Under the pieces are notes generated by a model. The model had not been told where the DNA came from. It worked only from the letters and a program-made list of their open reading frames with translations, and ran no database searches. Positions 5,979-25,989 of a DNA stretch of 45,074 nucleotides are shown piece after piece (position 1 is the first letter of the stretch; each line of letters opens with the position of its first letter). The DNA is taken from IMG/VR virus record IMGVR_UViG_3300044674_002114, positions 1-45,074 of that record; one strand, written 5' to 3'. The DNA is from a virus (lineage: Duplodnaviria > Caudoviricetes). Both the position numbers and the translations under genes were made by a program.

Positions 5979-8900
5979 ATGGAGCCACGCAGTAGCCCAT
6001 ACGAAGAAATCGGGATGGCCTCTGCTAGCCCAGACTTCCTTCAGTACGCCAGTCAGCCCGGCGTTACTCGTCCTCAGATGTATGAGTACCTGAAGACGAC
6101 GCGGCCAGACACGGTTGCCGCTGCAGAAAACGAGCTGAAGCGAAGTCTGGAGGAGGATGACGACACTGGCTTTCTGTCCAGCCTTGGTAATTTTATTAGC
6201 ACGTCTACCAAGATAGGCGGCCTAGCAGCCGTTACTATGGGGCAGCTAGTGACAGGCTTGGGCGCGGCTGTCGAGCAGGGTTTATTTGGTCCCCCAGAAG
6301 GGGATGACGCATATCGCCCGATGCAGAACAAGCTGTTGCTCCTTCGGATGGCGCAGCAATACTTATCTGCAGATGAGGAGATAGCCAGAGGCAATGCTAG
6401 CATCGAGGCTCGCAAGCAGAAGAGAAAGCAAGAGAGGGAGGATGCGGGCTACGAGGCCGAGTACATGCCCATGGTAGATCCCCTGACGGGCGTGACCATT
6501 GTGCCGGAGGCTTCTGAGTTTGTTGCAGACGTTGCCACGGATGTTGCCGACTACGTATCTGCGGCTACAGAAACTATTATCGACGACCCCGCTGGCGGTG
6601 CAGCCTCTGTTGGTTCGCTTGCCGCCCAAACGCTGCCTACCGTAGCAGCTTCCATGGCTGCCTATGCGACAGCTGGGCCTGCTGGCGGCCTTGTGGCTGG
6701 CTCGTTGATGGAGATAGGCGGCCAGTTTTCAGATGCACTGGTAGACCAAGAGACTGGCGGCATCCGAGAGTTGACGGGAAGAGATGCGGCCTTGGCTATC
6801 TCTACCGGAACCCTTGCTGGTATGGTCGAAATGATTGGTGCTAGAGGTGCGGTAAAGGCCATTGGCTCTCTTGCCGATAGCGCGGCACTATCCTCTGGCA
6901 TGAAGAAGGCGTTTAAGCGCGAGCTTATTAACGACGTTATGCAGATTGCCAAGTCTGGCGGCACGGAAGGTGTCACCGAGGCAATCCAGACCGTTATAAC
7001 AAACATCGGGGCAAAGTACGGGTGGGATCCAGACAGGGTTTACACCGAGGGTGTTGGGGAGTCTTTCGTCGCCGGTCTTATTGCCTCCGGAGCAACGGTT
7101 ACAGCCGGAAAAGGAATCTCGTCTGTCGGCAACAGGCTGTCTCCAAGCACTGCGGACATCAGGGATGGTCGCCAGCAGCTGCCCACGCCTGCCGCAGACC
7201 CCGCAATGGTGCAGCAGATACAGGAGGCTGCTACACAGCTTGACAACAATCAGCTTATCGAGGTTGTAGAGGCCGCAGAAGAGGGTGACATTCGGGGCGA
7301 CATCGCCGCACAGGAGCTGGCCAATAGAGAAGATATTGTTAATGCGGATCCAGAAGGGGCTGCATTGGAGTATGAGCAACTAAGCACACAAAAAAAGGTT
7401 ATCAAAGATGGAGCCGAAGCAGCAGCAGAGCCAGCCGCAGAGCCAGCCGCAACCCCAGAAGCAGCAGGAGAGCCAGCCGCAGAAGAGGCAGCTCCCGCCA
7501 TTCAAGTTCGACAGGGAGGGGTGGGAGAAGGAGAAGCAGAAAATGTCGGAGGCACAGTTGAGGATGGTGGAAGCCTTCAACTTGTAAGGAGGGGTGATGA
7601 GACATCTGCGGTAAAGACAGATTATAGCATCACGCCGCAGGGCTTGGGGACAAGGAGGGTTCTCGAGCTGTCTGAAGAAGAGGGGCCAGCCTACTTCAGG
7701 TCGTCCATGGTTTCCGCGCTAGAGGCCAACCCCTATCGCGTAGCTGTTGACGTATACGATGACTACTCTGGCATTAAGGTTTTTGTTAGTGAAGACTCTC
7801 AGGCTGGCGTGGCCGTAAAGCCTGACGGAGACATTGTATCGGTCTTTTCTTCTGGCGCAAGCAACAAAGGCTTTGTTGAATATGGACTTAATGCGGCTGT
7901 AGCGAATGGGGGCACGCACCTAGACGCATACGACACTGTGCTGCCGATTCTGTATGGCATGTCTGGATTCAGAGCCGTTGCTAGGGTTCCCTTTAATGAC
8001 GAATACGCACCTCCGGGGTGGGACTATGACCTGTTTGGGGAATACAATGGCGGTCGCCCAGATGTAGTGTTTATGGTTTACGACCCAGAAAACGCATCTC
8101 CATACAAGGCGGGAGACGGCGTTATGGTTGAGTCGTATGAACAGGGTCAGGCGCTGCAGAGGCAAGAGGTAGACAAGATTCAGGGCCAGTATGCCCCACC
8201 CGGCCCAACGGCATCCGTGTCTGCTAGAGTTAGGTACGCTGACGTGTACCAGAAGATGGCCGCCAAGTCGGATGAGGAAATAGTTTCTGCTGGTAGCGAC
8301 CCGCAGGCGTCCCCGGTAGTTGTAGCGGCAGCCTTCAACCATGCGGTATCTAGGGGTCTAGACGCTCAGGTTCAGCGCCCGCCTATATATATGCCCACCC
8401 GCCAATTCGCCCCAGACGCAGAGATGTCGCAGATTAGCGATGTCGATCTGGTGGACATGGCAGACAGGATGGGTATTCCGGATGCGGCAAACCAGAACCC
8501 AATTATACTTCGGGGCAAGATGTCTGATGCCCTCTACTCCGGATCTGTTGTAGACACTATTCCAGCCGGGGCCACGATGGATCAGTCGCTGGATCACGTC
8601 GCGGTTCACAGCCAGAACAGGTATGAAGTGCTAGATGCTATGGTTATTGCCAGAGAGCAGGGCACTCAGTCAGAAATATATCAGAAGCTGTCTAGCAGAT
8701 ACACGGAACTCACCGGCAAAGCTCCGTCATCTATGGAGCAGCGCCAGTGGGACCGCGTTCGCAATAGCACGCTGTATCAAAATGCACAGCTCAGTGAAGA
8801 CCTTCCGGCAATAGCGTCTACATTCCTGTCGAGAACAGGCGTGGACATGAGCCAAGCTACCTATGCCGAGCTAGAAGCGATGGCAGACGATGTTATGCTT

Positions 8901-9263
8901 ATGGGTCTGGGCCAAACGACATCATTCCCAGAGGCCGTTTCTTATCTTTCCGAGCAGGATATAACAACCTCCGACAGAATTAGGCTGTCCAATGAAATAC
9001 GAAAACAAGCAGACGAGCTCTTCGACCGGCAAGCAGGCCAAGGCGCGTTCGCACCTCAGCAGGCCCCGAGTGTCTTCGGAGCTGCGCTCCCTGCTCCGGC
9101 AAGCAGTGCAGGGGCAACAGCAGAAACCCAAGTAATAGCCGCGCTTGGCGCAGAGGCAACAACGAGACGCGATAACGGTGTGGGCTACTCCTCTTTTAGG
9201 TCTATGTTTGCGGAGGCGAAGCAGCTTGCCGCAAGATTGGCAAACTCTAGCACATGTAAATAA
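5979..9263 (+). CDS. Large ejection/polyvalent protein with a central GNAT-like domain
   Basis: Gly/Ala-rich membrane-like segment with EGGTEGVTE-type motif (SGGTEGVTEAIQ), EPAA linker repeats, domain GDIVSVF..GGTHLDAYD.LP.LY..GF..VARVPFNDEYAP.GWDY..PDVVFM. Confidence 0.6.
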   Translation: MEPRSSPYEEIGMASASPDFLQYASQPGVTRPQMYEYLKTTRPDTVAAAENELKRSLEEDDDTGFLSSLGNFISTSTKIGGLAAVTMGQLVTGLGAAVEQGLFGPPEGDDAYRPMQNKLLLLRMAQQYLSADEEIARGNASIEARKQKRKQEREDAGYEAEYMPMVDPLTGVTIVPEASEFVADVATDVADYVSAATETIIDDPAGGAASVGSLAAQTLPTVAASMAAYATAGPAGGLVAGSLMEIGGQFSDALVDQETGGIRELTGRDAALAISTGTLAGMVEMIGARGAVKAIGSLADSAALSSGMKKAFKRELINDVMQIAKSGGTEGVTEAIQTVITNIGAKYGWDPDRVYTEGVGESFVAGLIASGATVTAGKGISSVGNRLSPSTADIRDGRQQLPTPAADPAMVQQIQEAATQLDNNQLIEVVEAAEEGDIRGDIAAQELANREDIVNADPEGAALEYEQLSTQKKVIKDGAEAAAEPAAEPAATPEAAGEPAAEEAAPAIQVRQGGVGEGEAENVGGTVEDGGSLQLVRRGDETSAVKTDYSITPQGLGTRRVLELSEEEGPAYFRSSMVSALEANPYRVAVDVYDDYSGIKVFVSEDSQAGVAVKPDGDIVSVFSSGASNKGFVEYGLNAAVANGGTHLDAYDTVLPILYGMSGFRAVARVPFNDEYAPPGWDYDLFGEYNGGRPDVVFMVYDPENASPYKAGDGVMVESYEQGQALQRQEVDKIQGQYAPPGPTASVSARVRYADVYQKMAAKSDEEIVSAGSDPQASPVVVAAAFNHAVSRGLDAQVQRPPIYMPTRQFAPDAEMSQISDVDLVDMADRMGIPDAANQNPIILRGKMSDALYSGSVVDTIPAGATMDQSLDHVAVHSQNRYEVLDAMVIAREQGTQSEIYQKLSSRYTELTGKAPSSMEQRQWDRVRNSTLYQNAQLSEDLPAIASTFLSRTGVDMSQATYAELEAMADDVMLMGLGQTTSFPEAVSYLSEQDITTSDRIRLSNEIRKQADELFDRQAGQGAFAPQQAPSVFGAALPAPASSAGATAETQVIAALGAEATTRRDNGVGYSSFRSMFAEAKQLAARLANSSTCK
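7416..7487 (+). repeat. Intragenic GAGCCAGCCGCA repeats (EPAA linker)
   Basis: Three copies of gagccagccgca encoding EAAAEPAAEPAATPEAAGEPAAEE. Confidence 0.8.
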
Positions 9264-13417: not shown

Positions 13418-13471
13418 TGCATTTGCCATTTGCCAACCCTAAGGAATTGGCAATTGGCAATTGTAGTTTTT
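13418..13471. terminator. Hairpin terminator between the convergent arms
   Basis: ttgcca-t-ttgccaa / ttggcaa-t-tggcaa inverted repeat followed by gttttt. Confidence 0.6.
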
Positions 13472-13477
13472 GTGGTG

Positions 13478-14023
13478 CTACCGCAAAACTACGTACTCCT
13501 GAGGCTCTCCAAATCTCGCAAAGTCGCATGGTAGCCCATCTTGCAGAGCCTGAGCGATGGCTGTTTTGTCCGGTTTTCGGGTGATTCTGCTGAACTCGTC
13601 AGGAACCAATGACTCGTCCTCGATGATGACCGGAGCCTTCGCCTTTCTTACAGACATGCTCACCTTGTTGGGTGTCTCTGCCTTCTGCATGCCAAGTGCC
13701 TTCATCGATTGGATGATTCTAGACTTGAGAGTATCGACAACCCGGCGCTTGGTGTTGGCTCTCGACCTCATGGTATCCATCTTGGTCCGCAGGTATGACG
13801 CCTTGGCGTCGTAGGCTTCCGCGTCCAGCTCCATCTGTGCTATCACGATGGCGTAAGCATCCAACTTGGCAAGCAGGTCATCCTCGGCTTGGCTCAGCTC
13901 GTCCAGCAGGAACTCAGCACGCTCATCTATCTCACCAGCCGTCTCCTCAAGCAGAGCCTCGAGCTGGTGCATGACGTCCAGCTGGTTGGAGGTAAGGTCA
14001 AACAGGTTCTGTGTCTTTTCCAT
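13478..14023 (-). CDS. Siphovirus Gp157 family protein
   Basis: Coiled-coil N-terminus (NLFDLT..AKLDAYA), C-terminal SVRK..V.I.DE..VPDEF..PDKTAI..AL..G. Confidence 0.8.
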   Translation of the reverse strand: MEKTQNLFDLTSNQLDVMHQLEALLEETAGEIDERAEFLLDELSQAEDDLLAKLDAYAIVIAQMELDAEAYDAKASYLRTKMDTMRSRANTKRRVVDTLKSRIIQSMKALGMQKAETPNKVSMSVRKAKAPVIIEDESLVPDEFSRITRKPDKTAIAQALQDGLPCDFARFGEPQEYVVLR

Positions 14024-14420
14024 TGTCTTCGTGTGTTTTGTCGTAGTGTTCTATTGCCTGTCGCATGTGCGACGTTATCGCGGAGTGCGCCTCCTCGAAT
14101 GAGTAACACACCTCGGTCCTGTACCCAGCATCTTCGAGTCTAGCAAGCCACTCCTTCTGATTCTTGCTCGGTCGGTTGGGCTTGATCTTCATCTCGATAA
14201 ACAGTCCAGCGTGTCGCTCGGTCGGAGCCGCGCAGAAGATGTCCGGCACACCTCTCCGGACACCCTCTGCCTTCAGCTTCCTTGCTACGGATACATGCCT
14301 GTGCCCACCGTTGGGTATGGCAAAGATGTTGTTCCATAGCATGTGTGCACCGGCACACTGCTCTAGCCATTTAAACAGGATGACCTGCTCGTGATGCTCT
14401 AGGTCTTGTCGCTTAGCCAC
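13998..14420 (-). CDS. VRR-NUC domain nuclease
   Basis: EH.EQ, FAIPNGG.R, GVRRGVPD, FIEMK, Q.EW..L..GY motifs. Confidence 0.9.
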   Translation of the reverse strand: MAKRQDLEHHEQVILFKWLEQCAGAHMLWNNIFAIPNGGHRHVSVARKLKAEGVRRGVPDIFCAAPTERHAGLFIEMKIKPNRPSKNQKEWLARLEDAGYRTEVCYSFEEAHSAITSHMRQAIEHYDKTHEDNGKDTEPV

Positions 14421-14838
14421 GGTTCAGTCTTGCGTTGATGAGATCTGCCGCGTCCATCATGTCGTATCCACGGCTTTTCAGAATGTCTACTGACGCCTTG
14501 ATATTCTTGAGCACCTCCCTTTCGTGGTGAGCTCCACTTGCGCTAGGCATAAGCGCTATGCTAAGGTATCCATCAATGGTTCTAGCGGCATGTATAACTG
14601 TCGTGTGGTCTCTTCCACCGAAGCTCTTGCCAATATCAGCTAGGGACAAGTGCCTCAGGCAGACACATATCCACATGGCGATATGCCTAGCCGTGACGAC
14701 TGCCTGAAACCTCCTCTTGCCCACGATCTCATCCTGCGGTATTCCGCATACACCGGCGACAACAAACTTGACCTCTTCCGGGGTCGGTATGTTTTTGCCA
14801 GCGCCGATGGCTTCGTCTATCATTTGATTGGTAATCAC
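14413..14838 (-). CDS. Stand-alone DnaA domain IV (Bac_DnaA_C) DNA-binding protein
   Basis: GKRR..VVTARHIAM..SLADIGKSFGGRDHTTVIHA DnaA signature with no AAA+ domain; GTG start preceded by AAGGAGG. Confidence 0.9.
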   Translation of the reverse strand: MITNQMIDEAIGAGKNIPTPEEVKFVVAGVCGIPQDEIVGKRRFQAVVTARHIAMWICVCLRHLSLADIGKSFGGRDHTTVIHAARTIDGYLSIALMPSASGAHHEREVLKNIKASVDILKSRGYDMMDAADLINARLNRG

Positions 14839-15065
14839 TTAGAAACCTCCTTTGTCTTCGATGTGGACAGGGAGCCAAACACGTGCTGGATTATTGCCTC
14901 CAGCTCTGCCAGTGCGATCATGCACTCGGAGGATGTCTCGTCGTCAATGTCGCCAGCATACTTCGATACTACCTTGTGGATGGCACTGTGTGCATGGTTG
15001 ATGGCGCGGACTGTTGTTTTGATCTCGCCGTCTCTGAGGGTCATAGTTTTTGCAATGTGTGTCAT
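14835..15065 (-). CDS. Hypothetical protein
   Basis: ORF tiles the operon; CA-rich leader; GTGA overlap downstream. Confidence 0.7.
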   Translation of the reverse strand: MTHIAKTMTLRDGEIKTTVRAINHAHSAIHKVVSKYAGDIDDETSSECMIALAELEAIIQHVFGSLSTSKTKEVSK

Positions 15066-15074
15066 GGGTGTGTG

Positions 15075-15533
15075 TTATATGGTTTGCAGGTACTGCTTTC
15101 GGATCCTCTTAACGAGCAGCCACTTTGGCATCTCGTACTCGTGAAACTTGGACTTGCCGTACAGGTGTGTGTGAATGTCGCGCACGTGATCCTTTCTAGC
15201 TATGATCAGGGGCATCGAATCCATGTCGACAGCCTCCTGAAAGTGCTCGGGCAGATCGTGCAATGGGTCCACCTTCATCACCACCAGCTCCCAAGCGCTT
15301 TTGGGCAAACCGTAGTAGGTATCGAACCTCTTGTCGGCATTGCTCCATGGGTAGAAGATCCTGTCAGAGTTGAGATGGTTGCGCTGTATGCCTACCGTTC
15401 TGCGCTTGGCAAACAACTGCTCCCACTCAGCTAGGTTCTTTCCCGTTGCCAGCTTGCACGCCTTAGCCCGAAAGCCCCTGAGCGCCTCTGCTATGCCAAC
15501 GGTCTTTTGTGATCTCCATGCGTTTGCCATCAT
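15075..15533 (-). CDS. Hypothetical protein
   Basis: ORF tiles the operon and overlaps the stop of the SSAP gene. Confidence 0.7.
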   Translation of the reverse strand: MMANAWRSQKTVGIAEALRGFRAKACKLATGKNLAEWEQLFAKRRTVGIQRNHLNSDRIFYPWSNADKRFDTYYGLPKSAWELVVMKVDPLHDLPEHFQEAVDMDSMPLIIARKDHVRDIHTHLYGKSKFHEYEMPKWLLVKRIRKQYLQTI

Positions 15534-16090
15534 TCATCACCTATCAGAGCCTTTAGCCGGTCGATAAAAGCACTGACCTCTTTGCCAGTGCGATTTCCAT
15601 CGAGATACGCCATGCCGTCACGGCGTTGCTCGGCGGACAGCTTCGGGTTCTTCAGCAGGGATTTGGCAAAGCCTACCTGCTTCTCGCTAGCACCGGACGT
15701 GTAGCCGCCTCCCGATTGCTTGGGGCTAGAGGACTGCTGGTGTATGGCGTTGGCTACCTCGTCTGCAGAGGCGTACTCGGTCCCGGCAAGACCCACCGCC
15801 GCCAGTGCGCGTCCGATACTGCTAGTCTCCGACACCTCCATTGCGCTCGTGCGGTTGATCTGACTGGCTGACCGCTTTTCCTCTGCGTAACCAGTCCCGA
15901 CCACCATGCCTGATGGGTTGACCACCTCGGCTCTCATAATAACCGTGTCCTCGTCATGGTGGACAAGCGATGTCACGATGCCCCAGCCATCCTTGATGGT
16001 GTACTCGTTGCGAAACTCAGCAACCCGAAGGGCTACCGTCTTGTACTCCTTGCCGTGAATGTTCACGACGCCTGTGTCTTTTCTTGCCAT
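15530..16090 (-). CDS. Single-strand annealing protein (Rad52/Sak-like)
   Basis: GKEY..V..R...FR, TG.AEE, INRTSA.E..ETS.IGRALA..G, C-terminal ASEKQ motif; near Gp157 and VRR-NUC. Confidence 0.6.
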   Translation of the reverse strand: MARKDTGVVNIHGKEYKTVALRVAEFRNEYTIKDGWGIVTSLVHHDEDTVIMRAEVVNPSGMVVGTGYAEEKRSASQINRTSAMEVSETSSIGRALAAVGLAGTEYASADEVANAIHQQSSSPKQSGGGYTSGASEKQVGFAKSLLKNPKLSAEQRRDGMAYLDGNRTGKEVSAFIDRLKALIGDE

Positions 16091-16106
16091 TGTACTGCGT
16101 GTTTTG

Positions 16107-16126
16107 TGCCGCCTTACGGGGCGGCA
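16107..16126 (-). promoter_or_regulatory. CCGUAA-loop hairpin, copy 6
   Basis: tgccgcc CCGTAA ggcggca on the - strand, 16 nt before ATG 16090. Confidence 0.8.
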
Positions 16127-16135
16127 GATTGATGC

Positions 16136-16840
16136 CTATGCGAAGCGCAGGTTTACCTTGTCGCTGGTGTAGAAGTTGTAGATCGTTTCGATCAGATCCT
16201 TGTACTGGTCAGACGAAGTGCAGTCGTGCATCTTAGCACGCTGGCGCTCGAGCTTTGAGCGGAACCTGTCGTAGTCGAATTGTGGTAGATCCAGTAGGTC
16301 CATCATGGCGAACACAAAGGCTCGTCGGCGCACACCGGGGTACAGATCCTCAAGACCTACGATCTTCTCGGCATAGTCCATTGCCTTGGCGCCGTCTACC
16401 ACCGTGAACTCTCCGTTCCTGAAGTCATCAAACTTCCTTCCCTTGTAGGAGCCGGACAAGAGCCTCATGCACTCATTGTGACCGAGCCTGAAGCTATTCT
16501 TAAAAGCCCGGTAAAACAGATAGTGCTCGTTGCCCATCTCGCAGTAGCCTTCGAGGTAGTCGTTAGTGGTCCACCTCTTCAGGTTTGCATTTAGTTGCTG
16601 GACATCAGATAAACCGTATCCCTTGCATACCACGTAGTGCACCGGCAGACCGAGCTCCTTGGCGCACGCGAGACGGTGCTGGCCATCGATTACCTCGTAA
16701 TTCTCGTTTACCGTGATGACCGTGAAGCGGTAGTTTTCCCGCATGGACTCCATCAGCCTTGCTTTGTGTGACTGGTTGATGGACCGGTTTCCGGTGAGCT
16801 GCTTGAACTGGTTGTAGTTGGTTGTTGTGCGAATCTTCAT
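16136..16840 (-). CDS. ParB/Srx N-terminal-like domain protein
   Basis: GNR.IN..H...L..SM, ITVN, VIDGQHRL.A motifs; start moved to MKIRTT after a CA-rich leader. Confidence 0.75.
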   Translation of the reverse strand: MKIRTTTNYNQFKQLTGNRSINQSHKARLMESMRENYRFTVITVNENYEVIDGQHRLACAKELGLPVHYVVCKGYGLSDVQQLNANLKRWTTNDYLEGYCEMGNEHYLFYRAFKNSFRLGHNECMRLLSGSYKGRKFDDFRNGEFTVVDGAKAMDYAEKIVGLEDLYPGVRRRAFVFAMMDLLDLPQFDYDRFRSKLERQRAKMHDCTSSDQYKDLIETIYNFYTSDKVNLRFA

Positions 16841-16910
16841 TGTTCTGTGTGTTGTGTTGTGTGTGTATGGTGTGTTAGTAATGGGTTGGCGGGTCTGTGT
16901 ACAACGATGG

Positions 16911-18116
16911 CTAGGCATCGGTTCCCCCTATTTCGATCATCAGGCTTTTTAGCCTGTTCCACTTGAGCGGATCAGCCCGATGCAAGCTGTCTGACAGCGC
17001 GCACAAGGACCATTCGAATAGGTTAAATGCTATGCAAGCATCCTTGAGCATGTCTGTTATTCCGACCACAGATTCAGCATCGCCCCCGTCAAGTGCATCA
17101 GCTACCTCCTCAAGCATCGGCATCAAAAGCCCAGCCGCCTCTGTGTAGCTGGCTGTCATCATCAGGGGCACGAAATCAGAAATCAAGCCACCAAAGCCAG
17201 CGGTGCGGTGGAATACGCCAGCGACAAACGACATTCCAGCCATCTTATCACATGGTGACGCCTTGATTGGCGACCCGGCTGAATCTAGCATGCTTTGATA
17301 CGGTCTTTTCTGTAGCCTGTCGATAAGGTATCCAGCTAGATTCATGGGGTAATACATAGCGGCGTGCTCTCCTAAGAACTGACCCTGTGACGCCAACCCC
17401 ATTGAATCTAGGTCTTCTATGCCCTTCCCCTCGTCTAGGTAGTCCCTGACTATCAGCATGCCATCGTCATCCTCGGCAATCTCCATGCAGTATGTAGCCA
17501 TGTAAAACGCGGACGAGCCAAGCCTGTGATCTTCATGTGGGTCGATGGGGCAGGCGACCTCGTTGACAATGGCGTCAATGGAAACAGTCTCGCCGCTCGG
17601 CAGGGCTCTTTCCATCTTGTCCGACCCGGCTGACATGAAGGAAAGTAGCCTCCACTCGTCTCCCCCCATGTCCTCCAGTGTAATCTTGGTCAGTTGCCCA
17701 ATCGTTCCTGCGTCGGGATGAGATATGTGCAAGAACCCGTGCCCATCCTCCTCGGATATAACACCTTCTTGCACCTGCGGAGCACCGGAAACGGTGCATA
17801 GCTCTACCTCCCCATCAACTGGTCCCGGTCTCCATAGAATTGCCTCGATCATAGGGGGAAAAATGTGCTCCGGATCTATCTCTAGCGGAATATCATCAGA
17901 GCCGCAAGCCTCGATGAGCGCCTCCGACACCCTCTTTGATCGCGTAATGCACTCGGTCATGACGTGCGCGGCAATGGTTGCATGCGCGTTCTCCGTGGCG
18001 TCCAGCGCCTGAAAGATCCATGGCTTGGTGTCTCTTGTTTCCCGGCTGAATGACACCGTGGTCTCTGTCATGATCTCACGACCATTGACCTCTATGCCTA
18101 TAACATCGCGTTTCAT
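16911..18116 (-). CDS. Hypothetical acidic protein, 401 aa
   Basis: Start reassigned to MKRDVIG (AGGAGG SD, ATGA overlap); no family recognised. Confidence 0.7.
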   Translation of the reverse strand: MKRDVIGIEVNGREIMTETTVSFSRETRDTKPWIFQALDATENAHATIAAHVMTECITRSKRVSEALIEACGSDDIPLEIDPEHIFPPMIEAILWRPGPVDGEVELCTVSGAPQVQEGVISEEDGHGFLHISHPDAGTIGQLTKITLEDMGGDEWRLLSFMSAGSDKMERALPSGETVSIDAIVNEVACPIDPHEDHRLGSSAFYMATYCMEIAEDDDGMLIVRDYLDEGKGIEDLDSMGLASQGQFLGEHAAMYYPMNLAGYLIDRLQKRPYQSMLDSAGSPIKASPCDKMAGMSFVAGVFHRTAGFGGLISDFVPLMMTASYTEAAGLLMPMLEEVADALDGGDAESVVGITDMLKDACIAFNLFEWSLCALSDSLHRADPLKWNRLKSLMIEIGGTDA

Positions 18117-18628
18117 ATTGCCTCCTGTGTTGTTGTGTACTGGTGTGTGTTTGCTGTGCCGACACTGATGCCAGCCTTTGCGTCGCATGCTAGCATCATA
18201 ATCATAGGGAACATGGCACTGCACATGATCGAGATGGCTTCTGCCCACCCCTCCCTAGAGCCCCCGGCTGGGTGATCCATGCTGTACAGGGTCTCTGACA
18301 ACTTTTCTGCTTCTGTGTACATGCACGAGGGGCAGTCTCGCATCGAGCTCGTGTGCTCATACAGATCTCCGTCGCTAGGCGCAACGGCATCGTAGATCCG
18401 TGATATGATAAGCGCACGCTCTGCCTCGCTTGCCCCGGCTCCCTTTAGCACGTCTGCAAGCACGAGCTTGGCGCATGCCAGCGTCATGCTGTAGCACTCC
18501 TCCTGATTGCGGAGGTATGTGGACACGTTGCCCGATCCGGATCGCTCCGATATGCCAGCCGACTGCTCGGGCGTCACATAGACGTGCTTGCGCGCCAGCT
18601 TTGATGTTGTTGTTGCTGTGAACTCCAT
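18113..18628 (-). CDS. Hypothetical protein with a possible N-terminal ribbon-helix-helix
   Basis: RKHVYVTPEQ..I....G..NVSTYLR pattern; one CxxC; GGAGG SD. Confidence 0.5.
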   Translation of the reverse strand: MEFTATTTSKLARKHVYVTPEQSAGISERSGSGNVSTYLRNQEECYSMTLACAKLVLADVLKGAGASEAERALIISRIYDAVAPSDGDLYEHTSSMRDCPSCMYTEAEKLSETLYSMDHPAGGSREGWAEAISIMCSAMFPMIMMLACDAKAGISVGTANTHQYTTTQEAI

Positions 18629-19084
18629 TTATAAATCCTCCACGGCGGTTAACTCGCCGACATGTGTAACTTTGAACTCGTGATATTTGTCAGTCAGGTA
18701 TCTGACGGCAGACCTAAGGACTTCCTTGTGGTACATCCCCGGTATGAGCTCGACAGTTGTTCCTGCTTCGGATGGATCAACGAATTGCAGAACCTCATCG
18801 TCCTCTTCCCCTTTGTGGTGATGTATCACGCCCCAGTACACCACGCGCACTGCCCATGTGTCCGACGTAGTGCTACAGGACTTGCACAGACCGTACCCGT
18901 CTAGCTCCTCGTCAGCCTCGCACCCTATGCAGTGGTATTCCCGTATGCACTCCCAGCATGCGCCAAACGTGAGCTCCTCGTGGGCAAACTCGAGCTCACA
19001 GTGCTTGCACTCGATACCCCGGAACTCCGGCGGGGACAGCGGACCCACTCCGTGCGCCGTGTATCCAACTTCCATGTCATTCAT
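18629..19084 (-). CDS. Cys-rich double zinc-ribbon protein
   Basis: CKHC, CWEC, CIGC, CKSC; AAGGAGG SD. Confidence 0.65.
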   Translation of the reverse strand: MNDMEVGYTAHGVGPLSPPEFRGIECKHCELEFAHEELTFGACWECIREYHCIGCEADEELDGYGLCKSCSTTSDTWAVRVVYWGVIHHHKGEEDDEVLQFVDPSEAGTTVELIPGMYHKEVLRSAVRYLTDKYHEFKVTHVGELTAVEDL

Positions 19085-19230
19085 TTGCGTATCCTCCTTC
19101 GGATTGATTGTGTGATGCGATGCTTGAGCAGTGCCAGCTTGAGCTTGGCTAGCCTGATGACCTGCTTCTGCTTGTCCGTAGTGGCTGGACCGTCGTGGTA
19201 AGCCTCACGCTCGAACCAGTCTAGCTTCAT
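19081..19230 (-). CDS. Small hypothetical protein (MKLDWF...)
   Basis: ATGA overlaps at both ends; GGAGG SD. Confidence 0.6.
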   Translation of the reverse strand: MKLDWFEREAYHDGPATTDKQKQVIRLAKLKLALLKHRITQSIRRRIRK

Positions 19231-19550
19231 GGCTGTGCCTCCATGCTTGGGTTTAGTTGCCACATGTACTCGGGGCGTCCATGCCTGCCGCGACGCTTAT
19301 GGTCCGTCTTGACCAGCACCCCACGCTTGGTGAGGTTCGTGATAGCACGCCTGATGCTGGTGATAGGCCACTCCCCCTCTATCAGCTTCTCCACCTGCCA
19401 TGGACCGATAGCCCGGTCAGGGTGGGACCTGTAAAGAGACTCTATTGCCTCCTCCTGTGATATAGCACGCTCCCGGTGCTCCTTCAGGTCTTCTCCGGTC
19501 TCGTTTGTGGTGTTGTAAAATACGTCTCGAAGTCCGTTAATAAGTCCCAT
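19227..19550 (-). CDS. Winged-helix DNA-binding protein
   Basis: WPITSIRRAITNLTKRGVLVKT..GR.GRPE..W helix-wing pattern. Confidence 0.65.
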   Translation of the reverse strand: MGLINGLRDVFYNTTNETGEDLKEHRERAISQEEAIESLYRSHPDRAIGPWQVEKLIEGEWPITSIRRAITNLTKRGVLVKTDHKRRGRHGRPEYMWQLNPSMEAQP

Positions 19551-19574
19551 GGTAGTGTGTTGGTTGGTTGTGGA

Positions 19575-19853
19575 TTAGTTGAACCGATAGCTCTGCTGGT
19601 CATCCATGTGAGCCACGTAAAACTCTTCGTACTGGAACAGGCGGTACTTGATACGTGCCAGCTCCAGCACGTCTTCGGCTTCCCACTCGTCTGCATATTG
19701 TCGCAAGTCCTCGCGGGTCACGTCGAACGGGCTGATGTAGTCAGCCTCGGCAAGGCGTGCTATCGTGGCGGCTATCTTGTGCTTGCCAATGTCGGCGTTG
19801 CTGTAGAAGTCCGACTCGGACGGGGTTGGGTACAGTGTTTTGAAGTCTAGCAT
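19575..19853 (-). CDS. Hypothetical early protein
   Basis: Start reassigned to MLDFK after the leader AAAACACACACGACC. Confidence 0.7.
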   Translation of the reverse strand: MLDFKTLYPTPSESDFYSNADIGKHKIAATIARLAEADYISPFDVTREDLRQYADEWEAEDVLELARIKYRLFQYEEFYVAHMDDQQSYRFN

Positions 19854-19942
19854 GGTCGTGTGTGTTTTTGTTCTGTATTCCTGAATGTGGTATACAATCG
19901 TGTTTGTAGTGCAGGCGGCTTCGCGTTCGTAGCGTAGGCGGT

Positions 19943-20146
19943 TTATGGTATTCTTGCCATGTACTTGCAGTGGTCGCAGATCACGGGGTAGTTGTCCGTC
20001 AACCTGCCGCATGAGCAGTAGTCATTGTCAGGGTCTAGCGCTGGATCGTCGCACCCCTCTTCTTCCTGCTCCTCTGTCTTTCTCGGTTTCGGGAAGGCAT
20101 CAGCGATAGCCCTCAGGTACTGCACGTCTTTATCTATCGGTCTCAT
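19943..20146 (-). CDS. Small Zn-binding hypothetical protein
   Basis: Start MRPIDK directly after the 45-nt repeat leader; CSCG..CDHC. Confidence 0.65.
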   Translation of the reverse strand: MRPIDKDVQYLRAIADAFPKPRKTEEQEEEGCDDPALDPDNDYCSCGRLTDNYPVICDHCKYMARIP

Positions 20147-20188
20147 TGTCTTGGTAGGGTTGTGCCACCTTACGGGGTGGCTGGTGTG
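20144..20188 (-). repeat. 45-nt perfect direct repeat, copy A (contains CCGUAA hairpin 20164-20181, leader and ATG)
   Basis: Identical to 20424-20468. Confidence 0.95.
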
Positions 20189-20189
20189 C

Positions 20190-20426
20190 TTATTGTCCAA
20201 GGGTGACGAGTTGGTGGTCCCATATCCGACCACCCGTGTAATCGTCGGCGTTGGCATCGCCGACGTAGTCACGGCAACCATAGAACCACAGGGATCCGTG
20301 CCGTTTTTCAAGGTCTGCCCACCATGCGTCGAACTCGCGCCGCTCCTGAGCGTCAAGGTCATCATAGTCATCATTCTTGATGGCGAACGCCAAGTAGGTA
20401 GGTAGAATCAGATTAATCTGTGCCAT
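20190..20426 (-). CDS. Small acidic hypothetical early protein
   Basis: Bounded exactly by the two 45-nt repeats. Confidence 0.75.
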   Translation of the reverse strand: MAQINLILPTYLAFAIKNDDYDDLDAQERREFDAWWADLEKRHGSLWFYGCRDYVGDANADDYTGGRIWDHQLVTLGQ

Positions 20427-20468
20427 TGTCTTGGTAGGGTTGTGCCACCTTACGGGGTGGCTGGTGTG
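20424..20468 (-). repeat. 45-nt perfect direct repeat, copy B (contains CCGUAA hairpin 20444-20461)
   Basis: Identical to 20144-20188. Confidence 0.95.
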
Positions 20469-20471
20469 TGT

Positions 20472-20798
20472 CTAGTATTCGTCGGGCAGGAGCAGGGTGG
20501 TGACGCTTCGGTCGCGCTCCGTGATGATCCAAAACTTCTCGCCCTTCCAGTGATACGCGGACAGGATGCGGGATCCGTTTTCGACGGACCAGTCATTGGT
20601 GCGCTGGTCTTCCTCGTCTAGGTCTCCCCAATGCCCCGTGACGTGCATGAATACGTAGGGCATCACGTTGTCCAGCCCGATGGCATCGATGACGCCCGGC
20701 GTGGCTACGAGGTTGCCCAGTCCGAACCGTGGCGATAGTGATCCGTCAGAGATGTTGCCAACTTCAGGTACGGGGGTGGTGTATGGTGTGTGTTCCAT
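20472..20798 (-). CDS. Conserved plasmid/ICE-related small protein of unknown function
   Basis: F.LG..VATPG..H..G.WGDL..ED...N....G.RILSAY...WIITE.DRS.TT.LLP.EY pattern. Confidence 0.7.
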   Translation of the reverse strand: MEHTPYTTPVPEVGNISDGSLSPRFGLGNLVATPGVIDAIGLDNVMPYVFMHVTGHWGDLDEEDQRTNDWSVENGSRILSAYHWKGEKFWIITERDRSVTTLLLPDEY

Positions 20799-20815
20799 GG
20801 TCGTGTGTGTTTTGT

Positions 20816-20833
20816 GCCGCGTTACGGCGCGGC
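20816..20833 (-). promoter_or_regulatory. CCGUAA-loop hairpin, copy 3
   Basis: gccgcg CCGTAA cgcggc, 17 nt before ATG 20798. Confidence 0.8.
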
Positions 20834-20843
20834 TGGTGTGTGT

Positions 20844-21044
20844 TTATCGGTTGTCACCCTGTCGGCGCAGGGAGGTCTCAATCTGAGTCAGCGCCTCCCC
20901 CTCAAGGGGCGTGATCTCATACTCCTCCTGAAGCCTGAGCCTCATCTCTCGAAATATGTAGCGAAACTGCTCATCTGAGGCGGTCCATACGGCTTCGTAG
21001 ATAGACAGCATGTCGACGGGATCGATGTTGTGCGTGGTTTCCAT
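20844..21044 (-). CDS. Small hypothetical early protein
   Basis: Preceded by AAAACACACACGACC. Confidence 0.7.
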   Translation of the reverse strand: METTHNIDPVDMLSIYEAVWTASDEQFRYIFREMRLRLQEEYEITPLEGEALTQIETSLRRQGDNR

Positions 21045-21106
21045 GGTCGTGTGTGTTTTGTGGTGTGTGTAGGTGTGTTACGAGGTGTGAATCGGTTGGT
21101 TCCCGG

Positions 21107-21289
21107 CTATTTGCCGTACCCTCTGCGCTTGTTGTACCTGCGCTCCCAAAAGGTCACGGGGTCTTCGTCCTTCTCCCAGTCGAACCACCAAGCGTATTCG
21201 CTTTCGCGGTTGATCTCGGGCTTCTCTGATGGTATCGCTTGATCGGCTGGCGCAAGCGCCCCGGTCTTGGTTCTGCGTAGTGTCTGCAT
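21107..21289 (-). CDS. Small hypothetical early protein
   Basis: MQTLRR start 4 nt after the upstream stop. Confidence 0.55.
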   Translation of the reverse strand: MQTLRRTKTGALAPADQAIPSEKPEINRESEYAWWFDWEKDEDPVTFWERRYNKRRGYGK

Positions 21290-21293
21290 TGGT

Positions 21294-21395
21294 CTATCCG
21301 ATGATGGTTCTGATGATGAAGTAGGCTGTGCCAAGCGTGAGCCCGGCGAGGCATACGCGGTCTAGCACGCGGCATATTTTGTCGATAGGTGCCAT
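21294..21395 (-). CDS. 33-aa putative membrane peptide
   Basis: MAPIDKICRVLDRVCLAGLTLGTAYFIIRTIIG after the leader AAACACACACGACC; first ORF 3' of the ribozyme. Confidence 0.6.
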   Translation of the reverse strand: MAPIDKICRVLDRVCLAGLTLGTAYFIIRTIIG

Positions 21396-21437
21396 GGTCG
21401 TGTGTGTTTGTGTGTTTGTCTGCGGGTTCGGGTGTCG

Positions 21438-21491
21438 AGCCTCGTCAGCGCTGGCGATACCAGCGGACGGTCTTACGGGACCGTTTCGGCT
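21438..21491 (-). ncRNA. Type II hammerhead self-cleaving ribozyme
   Basis: AGCC-GAAA-CGGUC(CCGUAA)GACC-GUC^-CGCUGG(UAUCG)CCAGCG-CUGACGA-GGCU: all core nucleotides and three Watson-Crick stems; cleavage predicted between 21466 and 21465. Confidence 0.92.
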
Positions 21492-21499
21492 TGGTTGGT

Positions 21500-22381
21500 T
21501 TAGGCGTAGAAGTCCGCGAGGTCGGCATGCCCGACCGTGCCCAGCATGGTGAGCATGTGCTCCTTGACGCTGTTGTGTTGGCTGTCCCGGTCGATGGACC
21601 CGATGACGGCGTTGGCGTCTAGCACATTGGCGAGCTCGCCTAGGTCCCAGTTGACCTTGCCGTAGCCGGGCGTCAGCTTTTCGAGGGTTGTCTTGCCGCC
21701 CGAGAGCTCGTGCACCATTGCCTCGTCCACGCGGAACATGCCACGGCGAAACCAGCTTGGGCAGACCAGCGTCTTGATGAAGCGCTCCACGTCGAGGGGC
21801 TCGTCGGCACGCTTGATCGGCACAACCGAGTTGAGGTACTTCTTGCCGGTCGGCTTGACGAACGTGTCGTGATAGCTCGAGTAAGCAACCAGTAGCTCGA
21901 CGCGGTAGCCGTTGGACTCGAGCAGGTCGACCGTGCATGCTAGAGCCACGCCGTAGCGGACCATGCTGTCCGTGCTGGTCCATCCAGCCACGGCACCACC
22001 GGCGAGGATGGTGATAATGTTGCCGGTGCCCTCGATCTCCTCGAGGCGGTAGTCTAGCATGTTCTCGGGCTCACCGTCCACGTAGCGACCCATGTCGACC
22101 ACGGACCCGCACACGTCGAAGGCGGCTTCGAAGGACTCGACCACGGGCGCATTGATCGGCACGCCGCTGTCGCGTCTAGCGTCTGCGAATTGCTTGCGAC
22201 CGTCTGCCCATCCGGTGGTCATGAGCTCGACGTGGTGGTCCCAGTCGCGGGAGAAGGCGAAGCCCTCGCTGTTGTCCTTGGATGAATCCCAAGGAGCCTT
22301 GCTGTTCGTGCCGTAGGACACGGCGTCCTCGATGCTGTCGAAGATGAAGGTGTTGCTGGTGGCTGTCTTGATGCGTTTCAT
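21500..22381 (-). CDS. MoxR partner, degenerate VWA-like protein
   Basis: DVCGS.VDMGRY..GEPE.M and L...VDLLE..GYRVEL pattern; immediately downstream of the AAA gene. Confidence 0.55.
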   Translation of the reverse strand: MKRIKTATSNTFIFDSIEDAVSYGTNSKAPWDSSKDNSEGFAFSRDWDHHVELMTTGWADGRKQFADARRDSGVPINAPVVESFEAAFDVCGSVVDMGRYVDGEPENMLDYRLEEIEGTGNIITILAGGAVAGWTSTDSMVRYGVALACTVDLLESNGYRVELLVAYSSYHDTFVKPTGKKYLNSVVPIKRADEPLDVERFIKTLVCPSWFRRGMFRVDEAMVHELSGGKTTLEKLTPGYGKVNWDLGELANVLDANAVIGSIDRDSQHNSVKEHMLTMLGTVGHADLADFYA

Positions 22382-22398
22382 GGCAATGTGTGTTTGGG

Positions 22399-22418
22399 GC
22401 TGGCGTTACGGCGCCTGC
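22399..22418 (-). promoter_or_regulatory. CCGUAA-loop hairpin, copy 1
   Basis: gc-a-ggcg CCGTAA cgcc-a-gc, 17 nt before ATG 22381. Confidence 0.7.
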
Positions 22419-22428
22419 GGGTGTGTGA

Positions 22429-23577
22429 TTAGAGGGATGCTTTGAGGCTGGCGCGCTCGTCAGCTCCGAGGGCTGACAGGAGCACGAGGTCCAGCGCCTC
22501 ATCCTTGCTGAAGCCAGCGGCGAGAGCACGGGCTCCACGGATCTTGGCACGAGTGCCGATGGTGACGCGCAGACCGGTCTCGACGGCGCGGTCGCGTAGC
22601 TTGTCGATGGTCTCGATCCAGTCGGTGGCATCCTCCGTGCTGGCACCCTGCGCCAGTGTGAGCTCACGCTCGAAGTCGAGGTCGTACGACCAGTCGATCC
22701 AAAACATGCGGTCCAGCGTGCTGGCATCCTGCTGGCGTCCACCCACGTACTCGCGGGATGCGCCGCGTCCGGTGGTGTTCATGGCAACCACGACCCGGAA
22801 GTCGGGGTGCTTCTCGACCTTGCCGTGAGGGAACTCGACCACGGTGGTGTCGGAGTCGAGGATGCCGTTCATCTGCTTCGAGACGCCGGGGTGGCAGGTG
22901 TCGTACTCGTCCAGCAGGAGCACGTGCCCCTCCGTGATAGCACGCGCCACGGTGTCTTTGCGATGCTGACCGTTGGCATCGACGAAGCCGAAGATGTCGG
23001 ACGCGCTGGTCTGCGCACCCACCGAGATGGCAGTGAACGCCTGACCGTACGCCTTGGCGGCGGCACGGGCGGCTGACGTCTTTCCGGACCCGGCTGGACC
23101 GACGAGCGCCACTGTGCCAAGGGCGAGAGCCTTGACCAGCTTGTCGAAGTGCGGGTGCTGGCGTCCCACGTCCACGGTCGGACGGTCGGGGATGACCACC
23201 TCGACGGTGCGTGCTGGCATGCTGGCGAGCTGTTCCTGCACGATGGACACCACGGCGTCCCGGTCGATGCTGGCAGGTTGCTGACCCATGAGCCCACGGA
23301 GCCCGGCGAAGAGCAGGTCGGCAGGGTCGGACCCTAGGGGCTGGACGCCCGGTGCTGGCACGGTGTTGCCGTGGTTGAGACCGCTGACCAGCGCATCGAT
23401 CATTGCGTCCTTGCGTGCACTGGCAACCCACGTGGTGCCGTCAGGGTGGTCGGCGAAGTTGATGCGGCATGCCTCTCGCAGTGCGTTGGCTGACCGGTTC
23501 TGTAGGACGGTGCGCAGGGCGTTCTCGTCGTAGCTACCGGCTTCGTACTTGCGGATGATGGAGATGATGGGGTTCAT
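22429..23577 (-). CDS. MoxR/CbbQ/CobS-like AAA+ ATPase (AAA_5)
   Basis: Walker A GPAGSGKT, Walker B LLLDEYD, HPDFRVV.AMNT.G, D.STLDR arginine finger. Confidence 0.9.
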   Translation of the reverse strand: MNPIISIIRKYEAGSYDENALRTVLQNRSANALREACRINFADHPDGTTWVASARKDAMIDALVSGLNHGNTVPAPGVQPLGSDPADLLFAGLRGLMGQQPASIDRDAVVSIVQEQLASMPARTVEVVIPDRPTVDVGRQHPHFDKLVKALALGTVALVGPAGSGKTSAARAAAKAYGQAFTAISVGAQTSASDIFGFVDANGQHRKDTVARAITEGHVLLLDEYDTCHPGVSKQMNGILDSDTTVVEFPHGKVEKHPDFRVVVAMNTTGRGASREYVGGRQQDASTLDRMFWIDWSYDLDFERELTLAQGASTEDATDWIETIDKLRDRAVETGLRVTIGTRAKIRGARALAAGFSKDEALDLVLLSALGADERASLKASL

Positions 23578-23638
23578 GTGTGTATCCTCTAGGTGTGTTT
23601 GTGTGTGTGTGCCGGGGTGTGTCCCGTTGGCTGGTCTA

Positions 23639-23668
23639 ACAATACGGCGCTAGAGCAACACGTGTCAA
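23639..23668 (-). promoter_or_regulatory. Sigma70-type early promoter
   Basis: TTGACA (23668-23663), 18-nt spacer, TATTGT (23644-23639); about 60 nt upstream of the first early gene. Confidence 0.65.
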
Positions 23669-24792: not shown

Positions 24793-25017
24793 ATGACACA
24801 TATTGAGCAAGTGGGCAAGATTCTAGAGGGCGCTAGCCAAAAAGAACGCCTACAGGTAGCCACGTGGATCGTTTTGTCCTGTTTGGATCACACGCAGGAA
24901 GGAATGACGGAGGCTGACTCCTATCTTGACGTTGTGACGCGGCATTGCGGCGACATCCTGTCCGCAGCTCGCGGAAAACTGATGCGATACGGCAACAACG
25001 GCTACCCCAACAAGTGA
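24793..25017 (+). CDS. Hypothetical protein
   Basis: Tiles the operon. Confidence 0.65.
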   Translation: MTHIEQVGKILEGASQKERLQVATWIVLSCLDHTQEGMTEADSYLDVVTRHCGDILSAARGKLMRYGNNGYPNK

Positions 25018-25019
25018 TT

Positions 25020-25082
25020 ATGGCCGACACCATTGTCCAGCGACTAAGAACACCACTTTTTGACGGGTCAGCGATAGAATAA
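25020..25082 (+). pseudogene. Diverged duplicate of the first 21 codons of the 25093 gene (20-aa mini-ORF)
   Basis: MADTIVQRLRTPLFDGSAIE* versus MADTIVRRLRTPPFDGSAIEY; 7 differences in 63 nt. Confidence 0.85.
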
Positions 25083-25092
25083 GCAAGTTATT

Positions 25093-25989
25093 ATGGCCGA
25101 CACTATCGTCCGGCGACTGAGAACACCTCCTTTTGACGGGTCAGCGATAGAATATGCTGTCTACCAGCAGCATGAGGCGGATCGCTTGGGCATAACATAT
25201 CACGACGACTACCGAGCGGCAGAGCCGGGAGAATGGATTCTTACTGCCGACGGATGGGTAGGGGAGCTACTTATTAGGAAAGAGTCGATGACACATCGGC
25301 CAAGCAGGGGCATGCTGGTCGACCTGACCTTTTCCTTTGCCAAAGACCGCTTCGTAGTAAAGGCAGATAGCATAGAGCATGGCAGGGAGGTGCTAGAGAA
25401 GGAGGGTCACTGGGGCGATCACATCAAGAACACGCTCAGGGATAAGCTAGAGTACCTGCCCTACAAGTATCTGGGCCACGGGTACCACTCGCCAACGCCC
25501 ATGTCGTGGGTAGATGATATATTAAGGCGTACAAGGGGCAAGGTCGCCATACAGATGTTTGCCGACAGGCTCATATCTAGTGACTTCAAGCTCAGAGAAG
25601 AAGACTTTCACGATATAGGTAAGGTTTTGGAGCCAAACGCAAAAGTTCCAGCAGCAAAAGCCAAACTTGTCTACAAGCAGCCCAAGGTCAAAGAAGAGGT
25701 CATCAAGAAGACCAGTGAGTACCTACATGAGCGCGGGATGGATATGGGCTTTGTGCTAGACGTATACAAAGACGCCATCACGGTTGCCGAAAACACTGGC
25801 AACGCCAAGAACATGATAGACGCCGCAGACCGCATCAGAGAGGTCATAACGACCGAAGAGAAGAGCGGAGGCGTCGAGGCCAACTGGGAGCTCTTGGAAG
25901 CACCAGCGGCGGAGGAGCCCAAGTTCCTGCCGGAGCGGCTCGAAGTAGCCGAAGAGCCCGACGAGCACGCAGAAGATGGTGATAACTAA
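25093..25989 (+). CDS. Putative terminase small subunit
   Basis: Coupled (TAATG) to the large terminase gene; helical C-terminal half; called on synteny only. Confidence 0.45.
   Translation: MADTIVRRLRTPPFDGSAIEYAVYQQHEADRLGITYHDDYRAAEPGEWILTADGWVGELLIRKESMTHRPSRGMLVDLTFSFAKDRFVVKADSIEHGREVLEKEGHWGDHIKNTLRDKLEYLPYKYLGHGYHSPTPMSWVDDILRRTRGKVAIQMFADRLISSDFKLREEDFHDIGKVLEPNAKVPAAKAKLVYKQPKVKEEVIKKTSEYLHERGMDMGFVLDVYKDAITVAENTGNAKNMIDAADRIREVITTEEKSGGVEANWELLEAPAAEEPKFLPERLEVAEEPDEHAEDGDN

What the first reader, a model, noticed from the sequence alone, without database searches (positions are those of the whole stretch)
16107..22418. Six covarying hairpins with an invariant CCGUAA loop, one built into the ribozyme: a candidate new cis-acting system
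Seen: on the - strand CCGTAA is closed by perfect stems at 22402-22415 (ggcg/cgcc), 21467-21484 (acggtc/gaccgt), 20816-20833 (gccgcg/cgcggc), 20444-20461 and 20164-20181 (gccacc/ggtggc) and 16107-16126 (tgccgcc/ggcggca). That is five different stems with one loop. All are intergenic, and by eye they are the only TTACGG sites in the early arm. Five lie 16-20 nt before an ATG; none has a U-tail. The sixth is stem III of the hammerhead, where loop sequence is not needed for catalysis, so the loop seems to be under separate selection. Inference: a loop-recognising factor acts at each cistron boundary. Options are a boxB-like antitermination site, a processing or stabilising signal coupled to self-cleavage, or a DNA hairpin, since the stems have no G-U pairs.
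Basis: partly seen in the sequence, partly recalled or inferred. Interest (0 to 1): 0.85.

Follow-up and report, generated by a model that had tools for sequence, protein, structure and literature searches.

The report
Phage leader hairpins with swappable loop
An uncultured bacteriophage carries six small hairpins with the same six-base loop between its early genes, five just before a start codon and one inside a self-cleaving RNA; they likely mark and protect single-gene pieces of one long message, and since relatives swap the loop for ordinary stable loops it is probably a structural cap, not a required protein-binding tag.

Summary
The six hairpins are real and beyond chance. Five sit 16-20 nt before an AUG. 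The sixth (21467-21484) is stem III of a type II hammerhead. They mark 6 of 20 early-gene junctions, not every one.

In relatives the loop (consensus CYGUAA) is better conserved than the stem, and the spacing to AUG peaks at 17 nt. But the loop is replaceable: 5 of 10 distinct hammerheads in the clade carry cUUCGg instead, the loop also caps U-tailed terminators, and one close relative has no copy. Unrelated phages carry the same ACC-GCCGC…GCGGC-ACAA leader with other loops. A near-identical strain differs by whole gene-plus-hairpin and gene-plus-ribozyme modules bounded by leader repeats. I found no boxA, convincing N-like protein or virion RNA polymerase motif.

Best reading: a portable junction cassette whose RNA hairpin likely punctuates and protects the early message beside the initiating ribosome (0.45). 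A loop-reading host factor remains open (0.25). Function is untested, and no RNA holder was listed. This scan noted similar leader hairpins, with other loops, in other phages.

The parts
22402..22415 (-). Leader hairpin, 4-bp core stem, CCGUAA loop, 20 nt before the ATG of the DUF7192 gene
   Evidence: same in G001
21433..21491 (-). Type II hammerhead motif; predicted cleavage 3' of the GUC triplet, between 21466 and 21465
   Evidence: 33.6 bits, E 0.0038, gathering 37; orthologues score 53-62 bits; activity not tested
21467..21484 (-). Hammerhead stem III capped by CCGUAA; cUUCGg or CUGUAA in relatives
20816..20833 (-). Leader hairpin closed by G-C, 17 nt before ATG 20798; absent in G001 together with gene 20844-21044
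20444..20461 (-). Leader hairpin, 17 nt before ATG 20426
20164..20181 (-). Leader hairpin, 17 nt before ATG 20146; the G001 orthologue keeps the loop and has a C-A mismatch in the stem
16107..16126 (-). Leader hairpin, 7 bp, 16 nt before ATG 16090
21033..21059 (-). A/C-rich start-region direct repeat, upstream boundary of the 246-nt gene-plus-hairpin indel
   Evidence: family D2
20787..20813 (-). A/C-rich start-region direct repeat, downstream boundary of the 246-nt indel
   Evidence: family D2
23639..23668 (-). Sigma-70-like promoter match (TTGACA-18-TATTGT) heading the early arm; inferred
   Evidence: 10 of 12; total matches at chance level, 8 against 7.6; a similar sequence at the same place in G001
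13478..23577 (-). Early arm, 21 co-oriented genes (AAA ATPase, DUF7192, small unknowns, putative HTH, ParB-like, DnaA-C HTH, VRR-NUC, Gp157); one long transcript is inferred
13420..13463 (-). Long hairpin at the end of the arm between convergent genes, with a different loop; relatives have a CCGUAA-capped U-tailed terminator at the end of their arm

Best explanation
The hairpins are copies of a portable gene-junction cassette (stop codon, A/C-rich stretch, GC hairpin, ACAA, start region, AUG) that likely works as RNA, with the hairpin predicted to sit just outside the initiating ribosome and to protect and separate single-gene pieces of the long early message. Shown by sequence: the cassette, its covarying stem, the spacing of about 17 nt, its sharing of the same slot with hammerheads, and gain or loss of whole gene-plus-cassette modules between leader repeats. 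Inferred: one long transcript, cleavage by the hammerhead (and probably host nucleases), and end protection or insulation by the hairpin. The CYGUAA loop is a clade-preferred cap that looks selected, but it is interchangeable with cUUCGg, cUUAGg and GNRA loops. It is therefore more likely a compact structural loop than an obligatory binding site.
For: Spacing to ATG is 15-18 nt in 29 of 37 cassettes with an assignable ATG (43 rows, 6 without), although the spacer sequences differ. In 38 cassettes 96.5% of cells pair and 4 of 6 pairs change on both sides. Loop swaps: 5 of 10 distinct clade hammerheads carry cUUCGg; G006 uses CCGUAA once and cUUAGg twice in the same cassette; G002 has GNRA-capped mini-hairpins 20 nt before AUG (read). 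The loop also caps U-tailed terminators. The same stem base and flanks occur with other loops in unrelated contigs: a 5' [A/C]CC flank that was not in the pattern appears in 13 of 56 and 20 of 100 hits against 5.9% background. Module indels. Hammerheads flanking single phage genes are proposed to process long transcripts (PMC3088659, section 6).
Against: The loop is more conserved than the stem within the clade (27 of 33 loop-free hits; one loop change against several stem changes) and recurs on unrelated stems (L496, L510, G004), which a purely passive cap does not predict. It is not a common cap elsewhere: stem III has it in 1 of 141 phage hammerheads, and the U-tailed pattern matched 4 of 151 genomes (one true hexaloop hairpin) against 25 of 151 for CUUCGG (one phylum, host unknown). 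Wobble pairs do not single out the sense strand (3 U-G against 4 C-A). Predicted insulation of the start region is small (0.01-0.10 in unpaired probability). G003 has an intact arm without any copy. The covarying rows reflect only a few independent events.
Confidence: 0.45

Rival explanations
1. The CYGUAA loop is read by a factor, more likely host-encoded than phage-encoded, that binds about 17 nt upstream of the AUG and promotes translation or shields the RNA. Hammerhead and terminator copies would be optional extra sites.
For: Five of six loop positions are unchanged across different stems and closing pairs. The C-to-U change at position 2 occurs in two stem contexts. The same type of 18-mer precedes ATG in G006 and complete G007, which share no protein with the window (0 hits for 47 query translations). 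The loop is rare as a generic cap. Hexaloops can be protein sites (phi21 boxB; PMC12550061 passages).
Against: The loop is replaced by cUUCGg or cUUAGg in equivalent slots. The wider family keeps stem and flanks and varies the loop. G003 has no site. No candidate factor was identified.
Confidence: 0.25
2. The cassettes matter mainly as DNA repeats that let early genes be gained and lost by recombination. The hairpin would be inherited punctuation with little effect on RNA.
For: Two precise module indels between the window and G001. Four copies form one repeat family. G003 lacks them. PeSL precedent (PMC2839356 passages).
Against: The 246-nt indel is bounded by the A/C-rich start repeat, not by the hairpin. 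Fixed spacing to AUG and compensatory stem changes imply function of the folded form.
Confidence: 0.12
3. A boxB-like antitermination site bound by a phage N-like protein.
For: Small GC hairpin with a conserved loop and C-rich, G-poor flanks in an early operon. One 49-aa protein (19081-19230) has 5 Arg in 12 residues.
Against: No boxA-like match (2 mismatches allowed) on the - strand near any hairpin. Sites are repeated deep in the operon. The loop caps the arm-end terminator in relatives. The Arg-rich protein has no hit in the hairpin-bearing relatives tested other than near-identical G001.
Confidence: 0.08
4. A DNA element: an extruded hairpin promoter for a virion RNA polymerase, or a palindromic operator for the early HTH protein.
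For: Stems in the window are purely Watson-Crick. Protein 5979-9263 has a weak PHROG hit to a virion RNA polymerase family (E 9e-10). Wobble pairs show no strand bias. An HTH-like gene (19227-19550) is shared by many relatives.
Against: The hit covers profile positions 62-530 of 3406. No complete set of polymerase motifs is present in any long protein, and there is no informative Atlas or PDB match. One copy is an integral ribozyme stem. G003 and G004 keep the HTH gene without leader hairpins, and G007 has the hairpin without the gene.
Confidence: 0.06

Closest known systems
Type II hammerheads flanking single genes in phage and prophage operons (Perreault et al. 2011, PMC3088659; Rfam RF02276)
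   Same: 21433-21491 fits this family; intergenic, upstream of a start codon, with potential loop I to 3' tail pairing.
   Different: The five free hairpins have no catalytic core. In relatives they replace or follow the ribozyme.
PeSL cassettes of T4-type phages (PMC2839356, PMC4122927)
   Same: Repeated stop-to-start cassette with a stem-loop among small variable genes; genes are gained and lost at the repeats.
   Different: No promoter match inside the cassettes and no U-tail. The loop is conserved and the spacing to AUG is fixed.
SAS and ESAS of cluster K mycobacteriophages (PMC3203893)
   Same: Repeats tied to start codons, with an inverted repeat upstream; function unknown.
   Different: ESAS has 17-bp arms with a variable spacer plus a 13-bp SAS. 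Here the arms are 4-7 bp, the loop is conserved and the start region varies.
Lambdoid nut boxB, including the phi21 CUAACC hexaloop (PMC12550061 passages)
   Same: Short GC hairpin with a conserved loop in an early transcript.
   Different: Different loop, no boxA, many copies, also found on terminators, no conserved N-like protein found.

Membership tests
Type II hammerhead (21433-21491) | CUGANGA and GAAA core, NUH site, stems I and III looped, stem II open | tested here: met
Type II hammerhead (21433-21491) | Rfam RF02276 gathering score | tested here: inconclusive
   33.6 bits against 37; orthologues 53.1-62.5
Type II hammerhead (21433-21491) | Self-cleavage | not testable with these tools
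   needs an in vitro assay or mapped RNA ends
nut/boxB antitermination | boxA next to the hairpin (consensus recalled) | tested here: not met
   no - strand match within 60 nt of any of the six
nut/boxB antitermination | Cognate N-like arginine-rich protein that travels with the sites | tested here: inconclusive
   no family hit; one Arg-rich 49-mer that is not shared; small proteins can escape tblastn
nut/boxB antitermination | Terminator read-through | not testable with these tools
   needs a reporter
PeSL cassette | Repeated stop-to-start cassette with stem-loop; gene indels at the repeats | tested here: met
PeSL cassette | Sigma-70 promoter within each cassette | tested here: not met
   no promoter match at any of the six junctions
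PeSL cassette | Terminator activity and mini-circles | not testable with these tools
   no U-tail in the window copies; activity untested
SAS/ESAS | Repeat at a fixed position before start codons | tested here: met
SAS/ESAS | 13-bp SAS, and 17-bp inverted repeats with a variable spacer | tested here: not met
   alignment A3 against PMC3203893 passages
N4-type DNA hairpin promoter | Encoded virion RNA polymerase (motifs recalled) | tested here: inconclusive
   searches give no support; no structure prediction was run
Intrinsic terminator | U-tract after the stem | tested here: not met
   met for the arm-end copies of G002, G005 and L293
Any Rfam family (free hairpins) | Covariance-model match | tested here: not met
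   E up to 1, whole window; 17 loci, gathering scores

The most novel reading that the evidence does not exclude
The hairpins are the local form of an uncatalogued leader element, ACC-GCCGC-loop-GCGGC-ACAA placed about 17 nt before the AUG, that is shared by phages of unrelated lineages and read by a conserved host component at the upstream edge of the initiating ribosome. CYGUAA is a specific recognition loop that this clade also grafted onto its ribozymes and terminators, which would couple cleavage, stability and translation.
Probability: 0.2. Interest if true: 0.72.

Novelty: new variant of a known kind. Interest (0 to 1): 0.45.

Why it matters
What hammerheads do in phage operons is an open question (PMC6765202 passage). 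Here ribozyme, free hairpin and both together alternate in one slot among close relatives, with natural loop swaps (CCGUAA, CUGUAA, cUUCGg). That gives a ready-made comparison for testing whether phage operon punctuation needs cleavage, a stem, or a particular loop. The wider ACC-GCCGC…GCGGC-ACAA leader matches no Rfam family and could be a new alignment worth curating. If the loop is only a cap, the finding is a tidy further case of cassette punctuation in phage early regions.

Tried and rejected
RNA evidence: no RNA holder listed. One run of unknown kind, contigs only, was laid; its joints at the repeats have short sides and are not used.

Sense-strand RNA argued from G-U pairs: my first count was biased. 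The mismatch-tolerant recount gave 3 U-G against 4 C-A, so I dropped the argument.

Antisense UUACGG (UNCG-type) as the selected loop: the same 18-mer is read that way with a T-run in some unrelated loci (L360, L359, L252). In this clade the antisense copies lack U-tails, and the CUGUAA variant would break UNCG. Not excluded, low.

Trans-acting antisense partner: no strong intergenic hairpin presenting UUACRG apart from the reverse strands of the cassettes.

H-type pseudoknot of loop GUAA with spacer UUAY: possible in 8 of 27 spacers without GAGA and 0 of 11 with it. There is no covariation, and none of the window's own spacers has the 4-bp match. Not general.

Hairpin as promoter -10: only one stem type gives TAnnnT, and there is no -35.

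Generic stable cap: not seen at UUCG frequency in 151 genomes of one phylum. Folding tables give the loop no bonus, which is not a test.

Host: unresolved. No isolate matches the capsid protein, and the 4 GTDB matches to the 22-mer are about what chance gives by my estimate.

Literature searches with no result. One search (CCGUAA plus hairpin loop) listed 8 papers, none about a phage element by title or abstract; I did not read them.
Full report
Setting. The window is a nearly complete virus record (98% estimated) of a tailed phage with a P22-like portal, SU10-type capsid protein, terminase and GH108 endolysin. No isolate matches its capsid protein and the host is unknown. The finding lies in a minus-strand arm of 21 co-oriented genes (13478-23577). 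A sigma-70-like match heads the arm (such matches are at chance level overall). That the arm is one early transcript is inferred.

Observation. Confirmed. Six of 24 CCGTAA sites have 4-7 Watson-Crick pairs, and the other 18 have at most one. No hexaloop class exceeded three such hairpins in 100 simulations. The ribozyme copy is 21467-21484, inside an Rfam Hammerhead_II match (33.6 bits, gathering 37) whose orthologues score 53-62 bits. No other Rfam match reached E 1. The motif marks 6 of 20 junctions, and 6 of 10 with gaps of 20 nt or more. Four copies belong to one 53-nt repeat family, so the stems are relatives rather than five inventions. A covariance model found no further copy in the window.

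Stem. In 38 distinct cassettes, chosen with a pattern that required CYGUAA, 96.5% of cells pair and 4 of 6 pairs change on both sides; 0 of 500 shuffles reached the pairing or covariation score. These changes trace to a few events and the rows are related, so this is support, not a probability. That the element acts as RNA rests on its being a ribozyme stem and a terminator stem in some copies, and on its spacing to AUG.

Loop, evidence for selection. With the loop left free, 26 of 33 distinct hits in related loci had CCGUAA and one had CUGUAA. The other six had six different loops, two of them in a more distant phage. CUGUAA also caps a hammerhead stem III (L386). With the stem left mostly free, 15 of 33 viral hits paired at 5 or 6 of 6 positions: 12 from this clade and three others, one with a new fully compensated stem. 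Further stems carry the loop in G008 and G004. G006 and the complete G007 carry the cassette 15-17 nt before an ATG, yet gave no tblastn hit to 47 window translations. The loop is uncommon elsewhere. It caps stem III in 1 of 141 distinct phage hammerheads from a scan of 6 of 64 parts of the collection. A U-tailed pattern matched 4 of 151 genomes of one bacterial phylum (one true hexaloop hairpin), against 25 of 151 for CUUCGG and 3 of 151 for UUACGG.

Loop, evidence that it is replaceable. Of 10 distinct hammerheads in the clade, 4 have CCGUAA, 1 CUGUAA and 5 cUUCGg; L011 and L067 differ in stem III while stem I is identical. G006 uses CCGUAA in one cassette and cUUAGg in two. G002 also has GNRA-capped mini-hairpins 20 nt before AUG (read by eye). 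G002, G005 and L293 put CCGUAA on a U-tailed terminator at the end of the arm, while the window has a different loop there. G003 keeps the core early genes and has no copy and no hammerhead in its arm.

Wider family. With stem base and ACAA fixed and the loop free, viral and metagenomic scans returned leaders with many other loops (the metagenome scan covered 32 of 64 parts). An [A/C]CC 5' flank that was not in the pattern occurred in 13 of 56 and 20 of 100 non-CYGUAA hits, against 5.9% background. Some rows are related, so the nominal P values (2e-5, 1e-6) are too small, and most of the remaining hits are probably chance. Of 31 downstream proteins, 11 had a PHROG match, mostly of unknown function. 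Rfam had no match on these elements in 17 loci. Across phages the constant parts are the stem base, flanks and position; the loop is specific to a clade.

Position. The distance from stem to ATG was 15-18 nt in 29 of 37 cassettes with an assignable ATG (mode 17; 6 of 43 rows had none), across spacers with and without a purine-rich tract. From recalled knowledge, this is about the upstream edge of the initiating ribosome's footprint, so the hairpin would not block initiation. Predicted opening of the start region over shuffled hairpins was small: the native sequence beat 20, 19, 12, 17 and 12 of 20 shuffles at the five sites.

Modules. Near-identical G001 lacks a 246-nt block made of gene 20844-21044 and hairpin 20816-20833, bounded by the start-region repeat. 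It has an extra gene plus a cUUCGg hammerhead between two leader repeats ahead of the AAA gene. In L011, L014, L018, L067 and G002 a hammerhead is followed directly by a CCGUAA hairpin. Ribozyme and hairpin thus share one slot at the end of a gene module.

Rivals tested. No boxA-like match lies near any hairpin (consensus recalled). One 49-aa protein is Arg-rich but is not shared beyond G001. The virion-polymerase hit covers only positions 62-530 of a 3406-position profile, and motif, Atlas, PDB and homologue searches add nothing; I did not predict a structure. The HTH-like gene does not track with the hairpins. No antisense loop partner was found.

Mechanism. Most likely the cassette punctuates a long early transcript. 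The hammerhead would cut it, and the hairpins would protect the ends and keep neighbouring start regions apart, while the repeated leaders let genes move as units (0.45). The sequence facts are shown; transcription, cleavage and protection are inferred. The loop looks selected yet is exchangeable with classic stable loops, which fits a structural cap slightly better than a required binding site. A host factor reading the loop is the main rival (0.25).

Literature seen. PMC3088659: passages, section 6 and part 1 of section 11. PMC6765202, PMC2839356, PMC12550061, PMC6061696 and PMC3203893: passages. PMC4122927: part 1 of 3. No supplements were read. Searches found no description of this element, but the library lacks most subscription papers. 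Earlier AI notes of this scan describe comparable leader hairpins with other loops in other phages. They are leads, not support, and none was on this DNA.

Verdict. A real, conserved, uncatalogued leader-hairpin cassette of a known kind. The claim of an invariant loop that defines a new system is weakened but not closed. Interest 0.45.

Noticed in passing
window 25011-25156: Two tandem 73-nt direct repeats (89% identical) overlapping the start of the 298-aa ORF at 25093, ahead of the terminase gene.
   Followed up: no
window 1-141 and 44934-45074: The first bases recur near the end at an offset of 44933, which suggests a terminal repeat or circular overlap although the record is classed as linear.
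   Followed up: partly
window 23610-23630 (-): The leader of the first early gene folds weakly into a GCC...GGC-closed hairpin with another loop; it is conserved in G001.
   Followed up: partly
L085-L218: Type II hammerheads closed by GCC/GGC are very common in viral contigs (about 1300 stretches estimated); one contig (L111-L113) holds at least eight within 4 kb.
   Followed up: partly
L483:7100-7190 (G001): A 42-nt insertion duplicates the end of the upstream gene just before the hairpin.
   Followed up: no
L491:13968-14011 (G005): A leader-type hairpin lies in tandem with the arm-end terminator and shares its core, which suggests the terminator arose from a leader hairpin.
   Followed up: partly
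L221, L226, L227, L236 group: An unrelated phage group has the same 18-mer in the opposite orientation to its genes, right after a stop codon, with a T-run on the CCGTAA strand.
   Followed up: partly
L371, L374, L384, L394, L400, L412, L461: One lineage places an identical leader with a GCCGC-closed, UAGACU-type loop before different genes.
   Followed up: no
window 21500-23577 (-): An AAA ATPase plus DUF7192 gene pair heads the early arm; distant AAA relatives occur in actinophages and staphylococcal phages.
   Followed up: no
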